Assembly (NCBI GenBank): GCA_002633005.1
Contig: NMRA01000304.1
Location: forward strand, 89,200-153,199
DNA: 64,000 bases
Source of the DNA: Phoronis australis
Taxonomy: Eukaryota > Animalia > Phoronida
Reading direction: 5' to 3'
Below the pieces are notes generated by a model. That model ran no database searches. It was not told the origin of the DNA and saw only the letters and a program-made list of their open reading frames with translations. Below, in pieces: positions 21,933-33,900 of the stretch. Positions within the stretch are counted from its first letter, which is position 1. The number at the start of each line of letters is the position of its first letter. The position numbers were made by a program, and so were the translations under genes.

Positions 21933-24900
21933 CTAGTATCGCCCACTACTGTCCCTTTCTTCTTTTTTCGTGGATAATTTGGAAAAGCGTTGCTGTAACT
22001 CGCGCTCTCTTTCTTGTTGCCTTTGCACATCTTCCGTGAGCGACTGCAAAATAAAATTTAGCAAATAAAAACCATGAAAATTTTATTATGTGCTTACATT
22101 TGACCATTGCCTGAAAAACAGTTGTTTAGGTGACATAGACAAATGAAATGGAAAACTTGACCAATTTTGAAACGCCAACACTTGTCCAGCTCATAGTAAT
22201 TCAAAAACTGCTGAGAGAAATACAGTGTCCAAATTTTAGTGCGTTTTTTGCGACAATGGCACAATTTTAACTGTGGCGGACACAATATTCACAGTGCAAG
22301 TGCACTTTTAAGATGCACACACTAAGGTCTTTTTCCCATACTCTCCAGTTCTTATGAACTTCTTTGTTTGGACAGGCTTCAGGTTAAAAATGCATGGACA
22401 CTGAATGACTGCCATACTGTAACGCAGTTATACAACTGTTCCAAGTGCATGTGATACAACATGTGCTTATTGGTTCATAACATGTAAAACCCAGCAATAG
22501 ATTTAATCATTAGGACACAGCAAGGTTCCACTGGTTACAGATATTGAAACCAGAGTACGGGTCAAAACTCTCCGTACCTATTTCCACTATTCTACATTCA
22601 AACTCAATATAAGTATATATGAATGTGCTAAATAACAAAATGGTTTAACTAGATGACTTTTATTTACTATTTGACCACAACCACATTTCAACTACAGACT
22701 AGAATTTGAAATCGAGATATTGAGTTCAGATTAGAGCTCGTAGCTTTAATGTTGGGGTCACCATCCACTCACAGGATAATGTACTCGACCAGGCACAGAA
22801 TAACAGACAACTGTTTCCAGTTTGTACAACCGTAGAGCAGAAAATGTCTAATATGTCACTGGACACTGCACTACTGTGCCATGTCAACAATGCCTGTGTG
22901 AATCGTACCCATACATGTTGCATTTACTACAGCAGCAAATCATTGGCTGGTGACTGCACTACTACAACATGGACTCACCTCCAACCGCTTGGGTATAGCT
23001 CCTATCTCATGTTGCCGCAGGTTCTCAAACGTATGCAGCTCAACATGCGCCTGCTCCATCTGCTCGTAAAAGTCCTGCAACTGTTTCATCATGTTCTGTG
23101 CACGTGACTGGTACCCGCCTAGCAGGACCTTCAATTTCTTCTCATGTTTCGCTGCCTTCTTTGCCTCCTTTGTCATGTGACCTCGGTTGTTCTGTAGCAA
23201 GACAGGAAAATGTGTTAAAATATCTGCCCTGGATACTTACTATGAAAAATATTATCCAATGATATCAACTTTGGCATGCACAATTTTGTTTGGAAACGAT
23301 ACGTGTAAGTCAACCAAAGTATGTACCCTCTGAGGTAAAAACCCACCCTCAAAGCAAAAGCACACTAACACGGTAAAAGGCAGCACACAAGTTATCTATA
23401 TTTATTTCTTAAGTTAAGACCACCAGCTTTGGTGTATACCCAACCTGCTAGCCCCTAATGCAGTTTACATCTTGCACACTTCTTTTGACTTGTAAAAATG
23501 ACCAGTGCACAGCTGTTTTAGCAGAATAGGTCCAGACAAAGTCTATTGATCAGTCGTGAATTGGGGGCGAGCACAGTTTGCTGTCTGTGCATTTCATGGG
23601 TTTATGGTCAAATGTTTGATACAAGCCTACACGACTATAAACCCATCCCCATGTTTCGCTGATCTCCATTTACAAGCTTTTACCCAGACAGATACAGTAT
23701 TTAATTTACTAAAGGTCGAATGTCATGCTAAATGAATTCATGGTTTGAGCATTTAGCTAAATGTTGTCTTAGGAGATCACCATCAGATACTATCTAGCAT
23801 GTGCAATTCTCATTAGAGTCTCTTCACACACATAAGTTATACATCATCGGTGACGAGATATTTTGTTTCACAGACAAGCGTGGATTTAAACTCGAGATAA
23901 TAATAAGTCAATGCTTAGTCAATATTGCAGAAACTTAAAAGATTTGTGCACAACATTATCACAGCAAGAACATGGTACTTACATGTACCACATACGCACA
24001 AGGTAAGAAACAGGCAAACTGCCTTCACCAGTGAAGATCAACAGATGGGTTATGCGAGTTAGGAGAAAAAGGCAACCTTATTTTATTCATTTTTACAATG
24101 ACATTGGCGCAGTCTGCCAAGGCTGAGCTGCACTTCATGTTGCAGAAACTGCAACACCATGAAATCTTTTTTGTTCCATTTGCCAAAATAATGTACAATA
24201 CTTAGAGTGAACGTTTCTTTTGCTTACAACCCTCATGTACTCTGTCCATGTCAGTGGAATCAGCATGCAAAATCTCATGACTCTAGATATTGCCTGCTCT
24301 CAGCCATGCGAAATTATATTAGATTCACGATTCCTTTCCCCACCAGTGGACACGTACCTCTAGTCGTTTGTCCAGGCTCTCAATCCTGTCCTTCTTATTG
24401 GCCAGGTTGGCACGTGTGTACCTGTTCTGTGAAGGTAGGTATAGCACCTGGGCGTAGCACTCGTCCCACACCTGGGAGTAGGCCTCCAGTGACAGGTCGC
24501 CGTGGTTCATACCCCGCTTCACCACCTCCATGTCCCCTTTCAACAGTTCCCGTGCCTGGAGGACAGATCATGTGTCAGTAATTCACTGATTGTCTGATTG
24601 TTGTTATCTGATGATGACTGTAATTGATGTCAACATGCTGACTGTGTACATTACTGCATCTGTGTTGTTTTGTTATATTATGGACAAATGTTAAATGTTA
24701 TTTCTCAACTTGTCAAGCAGTATTCATGAATTACTTGCGCTGTGGCCATGACACAAGCTGGTTAAAGGATAAGCCACTGGCAGTATTGTTCCACACTTAA
24801 TAACAAACTAGTTAGATAAGGATTCAAAGGCCATATTCATTTTCAATACGAATATGGAATTGGATAAATGTAATCCAAGTGAGATATTAACCTTGTCCAT

Positions 24901-30900: not shown

Positions 30901-33900
30901 CTGTAAGAGTCATAATTCAGTGCAACATTTGACCTTTGTGGTGAGTCTGGTCAAAGTATTCCAAAGTCTTACACATGAAAATTAAAATACCTTTCTTCTT
31001 TATTGGGTTAGTGAACCTAGGCACGAATGAAAAAATCTTGCACTTGTCCAGTTTGAACAATCAGGAGGCAGTGATGCCTAGTGGGTTGAATGTTTGCCTC
31101 CTGTTTATAAGGTCACAGGTTCGAATCCCACTGGACCACACTACTAGAACCTCCTTGACTCAGGTCTCTAGTTGCTCAGCTTGGTCTTAAATTGTATATA
31201 TGTCTACATGTGTTATATGTACTTATTAATAAAATGATAAATGGTTTCAGGTGTTTGATACAATGGGTCCCACTGAGCGACCTGCACATGTTTGATGCAT
31301 CGCGCAGCAGACCACCTGCACTATTTGTTTAGTTTAAACAATTCAAACCAATGTGAAATAAAAAAATAAACTGCTTCTATGCGACACAAACCTATAACGA
31401 CGCATCATCTGACAGAACGTCGGAATGGAGTGATTAGGTCAGATACTATCTAGCATGTGTAATTCTCATGAGAGTCAATCTCTTCACACATTTCAGTTAT
31501 ACATCATTCCTAATCACATAGCAATCTGTTCTGGTTCAATAACGTTTTGTGAGTTACAAAGCCTCTGTTTTCTGGTTCAGTGAAGCCCCAGGCCTTACTT
31601 GATCTAATCAAAAACACACAAGTACATACATCCCCTCATAACACCTCACTACCCCCACATGCCTAACTTGTTCTGGTTCAGTACGGCCCCAGTGAGAACC
31701 ATCCGTTCCCCTCACAACACCTCACTACCCCCACATGCCTAACTTGTTCTGGTTCAGTACGGCCCCAGTGAGATCCACCCATTCCCCTCACAACACTTCA
31801 CCACCCCCACATGCCTTACTTATTCTGGTTCAGTATGGCCCCGGGGAGATCATTCTCTTTCCTCTTCTTCAGTTTGTCTTTATCCTTCCTCTTCTCTCGT
31901 GCCTCTTTGTCTTGTCTCATCTCCCCGTCCAGGTGTTTCTGCCGTAGACGCTTGAAATTGGGGTCCAGTGGGTTGTAATGCTCCTCTGATGTATCATGGA
32001 AACCTTCAAAGACAAATGACACAGAGATTTACCAGCGGTTAACACGTAACATGTCAACTCATCAAATTTGATCTTGCAAAATTCCCAGGTCACCTAAAGA
32101 GAAAAGAGGTTGCCAAAGGTATTGTATTTTAAGTTTGGAAATCACCTCAAATTTCAAAGGAGAATTCCTATTTGTACGACTTGTTCGGGCTTGGTTGCAA
32201 CTCGCAAAAAATGTGATGATTTGGTGGCAACTTGTGATTTTTACCAGGTCCCGAAACAAAATCTGAGGTCACGGTGGCGAGATGTAGTTCCATCAAATTG
32301 AGCCCTGCTTATGTAACAGCACACCAATGCAAGAATGGTCACTGGGTTACATGCCACGGAATCCAAGAAAGATTTCTGAGACAAAAACTCTTTCAAAATA
32401 ATCTACATTATTACGGGCAACTAGGTATAAATATGACTGCGCTTCAAAATGTTAAAGTAACATAAAAAACAGATTCTCTGCCATTAATCAACTTCAGCAC
32501 TGAACTTCAACAGTATTGTTAAAGTAGATGTTGATGGAAAGTCTGAAACAATAACCAATGAACAATGCGCTTTATGACAATTCCGGACAAACGAAACACG
32601 TTCTCATTGTGACTAACATTAACAAGTCTCAAAGGCTCTCTGCATACCTGGCGCTGGCTTCTTCTCAAACGGAATCTCTGCGTTGTAATCAACACCACGC
32701 CGTCTTCTATTGTGACGTTTGACCCTTGAAGAACAAAATCATTATAAATGTACTAACAGACCATTGTCCAATGACTTCTCACAAAATGAATATCAGACAT
32801 TTCAAAATTTAATTTTTATTCAGAAAAAAATGTCCAGTATTACGATCAGTAATGATTTGAGTGCATAATGCCAAATTGGAACGCTAAACAGGGTACAAAT
32901 CTTGACTAAGCGTTTGACATGACGTTTATTGTAAAAATTTGAAAGTTATGCAAAATCCATGTAACAAGCCTACTTACTCGATGCCGGCAGCTCTCAGTTC
33001 CCTACGCTTCTGAAGTGCTGCTAGACGTCTGGCTGTCTCCAGTTGTTTCTCCCGTGCTTTCCTTTTAGCCTTCTTACCTTGTGTGTTGGCCAGGCGGGCT
33101 CTGGCTTCAGACAACATCTCGAGTTCTGCAACAAAACACAAGGATCGTGAAATAAACACTTGATACTGTTCAGAATTTAAATAAATCTGCACTTTTATAC
33201 AGAATTTAGAACAACACCAAATAGTATTAAACTGCAGTTAAACACAAAGTACTATTCAAATTTCATTAGGAAAGAATTTCAAGGCCCACACAGTATCCTT
33301 TAGTTTCCATCAAAATTCTGACATGTCAATGTCATCGCCCTACCGTCCTCGTCCATGTCGATGGGGTCAGGCCGTGCAGGCTTGGTCTCTGGGTGAGGGT
33401 CAATCTCGCCAGGCTTCAGCTTCCTGGGGTCATCGGCATCCTCCTGCTCCTTTTGCTGGGCCCTGTCCAGGAGGTGCTCATAGTGCTCGAGGCACTGGGC
33501 AGCCGTACGTCCAATTATGGGCGCGATTGTGCGCCACTGCGTCGGCATTAACTTAGCCAGATGAAGTAGTTTTTCCTCCTCCTCTCGGCTCCATTCTGTC
33601 TTTTTAATGCTTGGGTCCAGCCACTCGAACCTAGCCAAAAGACGGATAGACTTAGGACATAGACCTTTGTCCAATGTAAGTTGTATTGAGATTTTAAGGT
33701 AAGACATAGTTGCTTAGAAGCTGTTATTTAGTATTAAATTATGAATATCTGAATTGGACACTCGCCTACAAATGACTAAAGGTCTTCCTGTGTTTTGATC
33801 TCATAAAAACCAGCACTACATCGATGTAAAAACATTCAATTTGACAACAGCTATGAACATTATGACAGATGTAAAATAGAAAAAAGAACGAGACTTTCAC

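What the first reader, a model, noticed from the sequence alone, without database searches (positions are those of the whole stretch)
23777..31517. Three paralogous box C/D snoRNA candidates in CDC5L introns with an invariant LSU-rRNA guide
Seen: three ~75-90-nt elements (31430-31517, 28540-28616, 23777-23853), each in a different CDC5L intron (6, 9, 13) and all sense to the host. Each has a box C-like ATGATG(T/C), internal GTGA and ATGAGA (possible D'/C'), and an identical 21-nt 3' end CACATGCTAGATAGTAT-CTGA. The middles diverge, and each copy has its own terminal stem (a perfect 9 bp in copy C), a pattern that suggests selection rather than a decaying repeat. Established: GCTAGATAGTA is complementary to the conserved LSU segment CCCUAYC-UACUAUCUAGC-GAAACC. 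Inference: the D+5 rule predicts 2'-O-methylation of the U in UAC[U]AUCUAGC. From memory this is the yeast 25S U2347/snR65 site, which I do not recall having a C/D guide in human. I also do not know CDC5L as a snoRNA host, so this may be an unannotated lineage-specific family amplified by intron-to-intron duplication.
Basis: partly seen in the sequence, partly recalled or inferred. Interest (0 to 1): 0.8.

Follow-up and report, generated by a model that had tools for sequence, protein, structure and literature searches.

The report
Invertebrate guide RNA triplet inside CDC5L
Three near-identical short elements in introns of a splicing-factor gene of a marine invertebrate likely encode a small guide RNA predicted to methylate one ribosomal-RNA uridine that a published six-species table lists as methylated only in budding yeast, and look-alikes occur beside other genes in contigs that are likely from other animals.

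Summary
Three copies (81-87% identical cores, about 50% flanks) lie sense in introns 6, 9 and 13 of an expressed CDC5L gene of a lophotrochozoan. Each has box C (AUGAUGY), box D (CUGA), its own terminal stem and a 12-nt guide complementary to LSU rRNA UACUAUCUAGCG. The D+5 rule points to yeast 25S U2347, the snR65 site. No Rfam family reaches its threshold. 'Lineage-specific' is wrong: a metagenome scan gave 26 distinct cores beside at least eight other host genes, none CDC5L. In them the two unconstrained positions beside the guide are T in 25 of 26 and 24 of 26. Sklias 2024 Table S4 marks this methylation as yeast-only among six species. The scan found this family earlier in abalone (e1-9907980). 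New here: in two RNA-seq runs, sense reads at exon-like depth cover about 0.8 kb of intron 6, starting at copy A, which may be a snoRNA-capped extended RNA. The mature RNA, this species' 28S sequence and the methylation itself were not tested. Verdict: an unannotated member of a known class.

The parts
31430..31517 (-). Copy A, box C/D snoRNA candidate in intron 6: 9-bp terminal stem, box C ATGATGT 31507-31501, guide 31455-31444, box D CTGA 31442-31439
   Evidence: z -4.2, 0 of 200 shuffles; 49.0 bits, in the training set
28536..28622 (-). Copy B in intron 9: interrupted stem, box C ATGATGC 28612-28606, guide 28560-28549, box D 28547-28544
   Evidence: (z -1.7, 11 of 200 shuffles)
23776..23854 (-). 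Copy C in intron 13: 7-bp stem, box C ATGATGT 23847-23841, guide 23799-23788, box D 23786-23783
   Evidence: (z -1.9, 9 of 200 shuffles)
21933..37588 (-). Host gene CDC5L, 15 coding exons, 801 aa, expressed and spliced
30228..31819 (-). Intron 6 (1592 nt); box C 312 nt from the 5' splice site, box D 1211 nt from the 3' splice site
   Evidence: splice joint 30227/31820 in 16 (X5) and 19 (X6) reads
27830..28839 (-). Intron 9 (1010 nt); box C 227 nt from the 5' splice site, box D 714 nt from the 3' splice site
   Evidence: splice joint 27829/28840 in 14 and 5 reads
23192..24357 (-). Intron 13 (about 1166 nt); box C 510 nt from the 5' splice site
   Evidence: gene model by homology and GT-AG; no splice joint listed for it
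30729..31510 (-). Intronic RNA of about 0.8 kb whose read coverage starts in copy A and runs downstream; possible snoRNA-capped extended transcript; ends approximate (149-nt bins)
   Evidence: sense depth 6.7-12.3 (X5) and 10.0-15.6 (X6); 1.1/1.3 in bin 31474-31622; 0/0 in bin 31623-31771

Best explanation
The three elements are likely paralogous genes for one intron-encoded box C/D snoRNA that is predicted to guide 2'-O-methylation of the large-subunit rRNA uridine equivalent to yeast 25S U2347. Mechanism: CDC5L is transcribed and spliced (shown). Each copy would be trimmed out of its intron to about 70-80 nt, protected by the C/D kink-turn and core proteins (inferred from the class). The 12 nt before box D would pair with UACUAUCUAGCG (11 Watson-Crick pairs and one G-U; computed on other eukaryotes' rRNA), and fibrillarin would methylate the nucleotide opposite D+5 (inferred from the rule). 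The D' half is likely idle, folded into an internal helix. The family appears old in animals and mobile between broadly expressed host genes; here it was likely copied intron to intron within CDC5L.
For: Exact boxes and guide in three copies whose flanks are unrelated and whose stems differ in sequence. Target is a conserved stretch of Rfam LSU_rRNA_eukarya. It reads UACUAUCUAGCG in all 16 contigs listed by the GTDB scan, whose pattern also allowed C at two positions, and in L001, in yeast and in silkworm. The duplex is -17.0 kcal/mol, and the best match in the 6.7-kb contig L037 by 11 against 7 Watson-Crick pairs. D+5 falls on the U that snR65 methylates; deleting snR65 removes that methyl in yeast. 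In 26 distinct metagenome cores the free D+1 position is T in 25, and the base 5' of the searched guide pairs with the rRNA G in 25 (24 T, 1 C); 16 of 24 scorable cores have a terminal duplex below -2 kcal/mol against 33% of random pairs. Host mobility with a fixed target is the pattern described by Hoeppner and Poole 2012. No further copies in the 64-kb window.
Against: No mature short RNA was seen; the 151-nt paired libraries gave zero reads in the bin holding copy C, which such libraries would miss anyway. This species' 28S was not available (no genome). The site is unmethylated in fly, human, Arabidopsis, Xenopus and Dictyostelium and is pseudouridine only in S. pombe, so no animal has a measured methyl here in what I read. 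Box C ends in U or C rather than A (24 of 25 cores), the D+1 base is unpaired, and the copies lie 590-1210 nt from the 3' splice site. Copies B and C fold no better than about 5% of shuffles. Genome-wide copy number is unknown.
Confidence: 0.8

Rival explanations
1. The RNA is a real C/D snoRNP that pairs with the same rRNA stretch but does not methylate it; it would act as a folding chaperone or compete with the H/ACA guide that pseudouridylates this region.
For: In yeast, methylation and pseudouridylation compete at this very U. The animals profiled so far lack the methyl. Box C position 7 is non-consensus, and the bases after box C could pair with the last guide bases (seen in the alignment).
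Against: The spacing between guide and box D is invariant in register with D+5 on a U known to be methylated in yeast; the animals that lack the methyl also showed no such guide in the tables searched.
Confidence: 0.1
2. The main role of at least copy A is in cis: it caps a longer intronic RNA (SPA-like) or modulates splicing of CDC5L, and the guide is secondary.
For: Sense reads at exon-like depth cover 30729-31473 in runs X5 and X6, fall to about 1 in the bin holding copy A's 5' end and to 0 further upstream; fully intronic bins of introns 7 and 8 have 0; no splice joint into this stretch is listed. Of the 23 listed sense variants there, 22 also occur in the DNA run X1, so the reads come from this locus.
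Against: Copy C has no such reads and intron 9 has only low reads on both sides of copy B. No canonical poly(A) signal lies near the apparent 3' end (AATAAA at 31004 is read through). The 3' end coincides with a short tandem repeat and a 401-nt indel seen in X1, so it may be a mapping edge. Two runs of one study. A slowly trimmed precursor explains it equally well.
Confidence: 0.06
3. The elements are a small repeat or decaying copies, the 'guide' being a stray antisense piece of 28S rDNA picked up at the R1 retrotransposon target site.
For: The R1Bm endonuclease target lies in exactly this 28S stretch, and a short 28S piece spanning it sits in a viral contig (L001). Near-identical copies with shared flanks occur at three unrelated places in related contigs (L003, L012, L015), so the family can be mobile.
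Against: The rRNA match is only 11-12 nt and is always followed by T-CTGA and preceded at 46-76 nt by a C box; stems differ in sequence yet keep pairing; DNA contig depth over the copies is at single-copy level (33-61 in X1, against hundreds to over 100,000 for true repeats nearby); all three are sense and intronic.
Confidence: 0.04

Closest known systems
S. cerevisiae snR65 (box C/D guide for 25S Um2347; U2345 in Taoka numbering)
   Same: Predicted target nucleotide is the same.
   Different: Here intronic and in three copies; Rfam gave no snR65-family match in the E-value scans of this region. I could not obtain the snR65 sequence, so common descent against convergence on the same site is open.
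snR64 / SNORD74 / Drosophila Me28S-C2645 (CD31a-c)
   Same: C/D guides for the neighbouring LSU stretch; the fly gene is also a triplet, and it is credited with a fly-only Am at the position aligned to yeast 2345, two nucleotides from this target.
   Different: Target is C2337, ten nucleotides upstream; a different guide register; fly host is the lncRNA Uhg3.
Rfam snoZ266 (RF00332)
   Same: Best Rfam score, for copy A only: 34.4 bits, E 0.0019; shares box C, the stem and a UGUGUGAA stretch.
   Different: Below the gathering score of 43; the D-box guide does not match; it was not among the matches for copies B and C.
SPA RNAs (5' snoRNA-ended polyadenylated lncRNAs: SPA1, SPA2, SNORD86 cSPA of NOP56)
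   Same: A long RNA whose 5' end is a C/D snoRNA, as the intron-6 reads suggest.
   Different: Neither the exact 5' end nor a poly(A) tail is shown here; the examples in the passages read are mammalian.

Membership tests
box C/D snoRNA (class) | Box C (RUGAUGA) near the 5' end and box D (CUGA) near the 3' end | tested here: met
   AUGAUGU/C (6 of 7) and CUGA in all three copies
box C/D snoRNA (class) | Terminal stem closing the C/D motif | tested here: met
   9 bp (A), 7 bp (C), interrupted (B)
box C/D snoRNA (class) | 10-21-nt antisense element just upstream of D or D' matching rRNA/snRNA | tested here: met
   12-bp duplex with LSU rRNA of other eukaryotes; this species' 28S not seen
box C/D snoRNA (class) | Functional internal C'/D' motif with a second guide | tested here: inconclusive
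   GUGA and AUGAGA are conserved among the three copies, but the upstream 14 nt differ and share no target in L037; predicted to be buried in a helix
box C/D snoRNA (class) | Intronic, sense position in an expressed host gene (animal type) | tested here: met
box C/D snoRNA (class) | Accumulates as a 60-100-nt RNA bound by fibrillarin, NOP56/58 and SNU13 | not testable with these tools
   No small-RNA library was listed; 151-nt paired reads cannot show it
box C/D snoRNA (class) | Target nucleotide is 2'-O-methylated in a guide-dependent way | not testable with these tools
   Shown only for yeast
snR65 family | Same target nucleotide | tested here: met
   D+5 falls on the U methylated by snR65
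snR65 family | Sequence homology to snR65 (Rfam gathering score) | tested here: not met
   No gathering hit in the window or in 20 of the 27 homologue loci; no snR65-named model among the E-value matches. Whether the library holds such a model was not checked separately
snoZ266 (RF00332) | Rfam gathering score 43 and matching guide | tested here: not met
   34.4 bits for copy A only; guide differs
SPA RNA | 5' end at the snoRNA and a poly(A) tail | tested here: inconclusive
   Coverage edge within the bin holding copy A's 5' end; no listed pile-up of read ends; no poly(A) evidence

The most novel reading that the evidence does not exclude
An uncatalogued snoRNA family installs the 'yeast-only' LSU U2347 methyl across much of the invertebrate tree and was lost in fly and vertebrates; and in this animal copy A also caps a stable 0.8-kb intronic RNA about as abundant as the CDC5L mRNA, an invertebrate SPA-type transcript inside a core splicing-factor gene.
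Probability: 0.2. Interest if true: 0.65.

Novelty: new member of a known kind. Interest (0 to 1): 0.4.

Why it matters
If the methyl is confirmed, a modification listed as a budding-yeast peculiarity would be common in animals and missing only in the model species profiled, which changes how gains and losses of rRNA marks are read. In yeast, methylation and pseudouridylation compete at this U, so species with and without the guide would allow a direct comparison. It also adds a family missing from Rfam and CDC5L as a host gene. The effect on biology is probably small: it is one site of about a hundred, and the class and its mobility are well known.

Tried and rejected
Whole-genome copy count: no genome is held. 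Rfam gathering scans of the window and of 20 of 27 homologue loci: nothing; E-value scans gave only sub-threshold generic C/D or miRNA matches. Sequencing-run search: no RNA holder listed among indexed runs, and no small-RNA library; this is no evidence either way. Run X7 had almost no CDC5L reads and was uninformative. CDC5L as host elsewhere: tblastn of three CDC5L proteins against the 28 loci then held gave no hit. D' guide targets: best matches 8-9 Watson-Crick pairs at different places for each copy; rejected. snR65 sequence: not found in the supplements of PMC4138321 (2 of 9 files not searched) or PMC5062969 (1 file not searched). The mammalian 28S variant with C in the target (recalled) did not appear among the 16 contigs listed, and human pseudouridine at this site is recalled only (one search found nothing). 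A search for nematode methylation maps returned 0 papers. Planarian RiboMeth-seq (PMC11649923, passages) names no site I could align to this one. L026 (beside a bacterial-type PD-(D/E)XK transposase gene, D+1 = C) and L020 are probably chance hits; L002, L020 and L026 and duplicate cores were left out of the 20-sequence alignment behind model R1, but are included in the 26-core counts. The careful protein tree did not finish; the quick tree is reported.
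Full report
1. Observation. The three elements are present at the stated coordinates on the minus strand. The 21-mer occurs exactly three times and not by chance (0.00 expected). 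A sequence profile built from 20 cores, these three included, finds no fourth copy in the window: the next score is 8 bits against 47-50. Core identity between copies is 81-87%, flank identity 47-56%. Copy A (31430-31517) has a perfect 9-bp terminal stem and folds better than all 200 shuffles; C has 7 bp; B an interrupted stem; B and C are matched by 11 and 9 of 200 shuffles. The three stems differ in sequence. The consensus fold pairs GUGUGUGA with UU(A/G)CACAU, with one-sided changes only and no two-sided change among three sequences, so the CACA part of the invariant end is likely structural.

2. Host. tblastn with homologues and a spliced model give CDC5L, 15 coding exons, 801 aa, 37588-21933 (Myb and Myb_Cef domains). 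It is about 76% identical to nemertean and brachiopod proteins and falls in the lophotrochozoan clade (SH-aLRT 97, quick tree, 26 chosen homologues), outside the mollusc clade. The copies sit in introns 6, 9 and 13. Stranded RNA-seq (X5, X6; 18-19% of each run read; one study) shows expression and four GT-AG joints, including introns 6 and 9.

3. Target. The 12 nt before the D+1 base pair with UACUAUCUAGCG: 11 Watson-Crick pairs plus a G-U, -17.0 kcal/mol for the core. Taoka 2016 (PMC5062969; passages and two of three supplements) prints the yeast fragment UCCCUAUCUAC-U2345-AUCUAG, shows that snR65 deletion removes the methyl, and that snR9 pseudouridylates the same U in competition. Sloan 2017 (PMC5699541; passages) numbers it 2347. 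D+5 of the window's guide is that U. In S. pombe the equivalent position is pseudouridine. Sklias 2024 (PMC11014333; passages and supplementary table rows) lists it as methylated in yeast only among fly, human, yeast, Arabidopsis, Xenopus and Dictyostelium; fly instead has an Am two nucleotides upstream. The guide string is absent from 12 of 17 supplementary files of the zebrafish RiboMeth study, which include its SNORD lists (PMC7668251; passages, section 5), and from the zebrafish snoRNAome supplement (PMC11880993; supplement search only).

4. Relatives. One metagenome scan for box C, a 46-76-nt gap, guide and box D gave 27 loci with 36 copies, 26 distinct cores. Positions not fixed by the pattern are conserved: D+1 is T in 25 of 26; the base before the guide is T in 24, C in 1 (both pair with the rRNA G), G in 1; box C position 7 is U or C in 24 of 25. 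Neighbouring exons identify RPN6/PSMD11, importin-5, a DDX6-type helicase, NAA15, PP2A-B56 and a RasGEF above Pfam cut-offs or by PDB match, a domino/SRCAP helicase by protein search, and SAPS and EF1-beta-type genes below cut-off. I sent 33 of 134 listed frames, and listed only frames on the element's strand, so sense orientation there is partly by construction. The hosts look animal: RPN6 scores higher against the 3txm chain (fly, recalled) than human, importin-5 far higher against the Importin-5 chains than against Importin beta-3 (human and yeast, recalled), domino best against bivalves and crinoids. Species were not determined. Several loci hold two or three copies in one gene, as here. 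None is CDC5L. An earlier scan note reports the same target in abalone (e1-9907980); it is an unchecked note, found after my own results, and I did not see its sequences.

5. RNA from intron 6. Sense depth over 30729-31473 is 6.7-12.3 (X5) and 10.0-15.6 (X6), against 9.0 and 15.5 in an exon-7 bin. It drops to about 1 in the bin with copy A's 5' end and to 0 upstream; fully intronic bins of introns 7 and 8 are 0. No joint enters this stretch. Of 23 listed sense variants, 22 are also in the DNA run (only the 40 best of 107 rows are shown). This fits an RNA whose 5' end is protected by a snoRNP, which would be indirect support for assembly on copy A. Against over-reading: bins are 149 nt, no pile-up of ends was listed, the upstream intron holds a 76-nt tandem repeat that may vary between individuals, the 3' edge abuts a polymorphic indel, no poly(A) signal fits, copy C shows nothing, and intron 9 has low reads on both sides of copy B. 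Known kinds of such RNAs are reviewed in PMC11028025 (passages).

6. Mechanism and rivals. Best reading (0.8): redundant intronic C/D guides for Um at the U2347-equivalent. Shown: sequence, position, host expression, complementarity to other species' rRNA. Inferred: processing, snoRNP assembly, methylation. Rivals: a non-methylating chaperone or competitor (0.1); a mainly cis or capping role (0.06); an rDNA-derived repeat at the R1 site (0.04; R1Bm target from PMC1919474, one passage).

7. Comparison and novelty. It works like yeast snR65, but membership of that family is not shown. No Rfam family covers it. Movement between broadly expressed hosts is established (PMC3511168; abstract and passages). 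Print searches: 'snR65' 20 papers, all seen as listings, none by title on an animal counterpart; CDC5L with snoRNA, host gene and intron, 14 papers, 12 listed, none by title or abstract start on CDC5L as host; the guide string in DNA letters, 24 papers listed, the two opened being an rRNA probe and an rRNA marker oligo; in RNA letters, 0; searches found no invertebrate study of this site by listing. PMC8817022 and PMC8413462 were read as passages without bearing on the site. The library lacks most subscription papers and all snoRNA databases, so an existing annotation cannot be excluded; unread supplements may bear on this.

8. Verdict. Real, likely functional, uncatalogued, widespread: a new member of a known kind. 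Interest 0.4.

Noticed in passing
window 31631-31851: A 76-nt unit spanning the end of exon 6 and its 5' splice site is repeated 2.9 times (92% matches), placing degenerate copies of the splice-site region in intron 6 just upstream of copy A; only the first site has listed joints.
   Followed up: partly
window 30729-31510: Intronic sense RNA at exon-like depth starting at copy A; ends and nature unresolved.
   Followed up: partly
L001 (viral contig) about 295-385: A piece of about 90 nt resembling eukaryotic 28S rRNA, spanning this same target and the R1 site, sits in AT-rich sequence of a 105-kb viral contig; too short for an Rfam hit.
   Followed up: no
L003:2501-2570, L012:1426-1495, L015:249-318: Near-identical snoRNA copies, two with about 30 nt of shared flank, beside three unrelated genes (B56, RasGEF, an unassigned ORF) in related assemblies, suggesting recent jumps between host genes.
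   Followed up: partly
window 25900-27000 and 35300-37450: High-copy interspersed repeats in CDC5L introns 11 and 1 (contig depth up to more than 100,000, many transcribed reads); an N gap lies near 36610-36880.
   Followed up: no
window 30269-30669: A 401-nt stretch of intron 6 is absent from a contig of DNA run X1, so it is likely polymorphic; 30501-30542 within it matches an abundant antisense transcript from elsewhere.
   Followed up: no
window about 17600-19640 (+): A LanC-like (LANCL) gene ends tail to tail with CDC5L (last exon, Pfam PF05147).
   Followed up: no
L029-L044: Eukaryotic-type LSU rDNA fragments are present in 16 listed contigs of prokaryote genome assemblies (about 170 estimated), likely contamination.
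   Followed up: no
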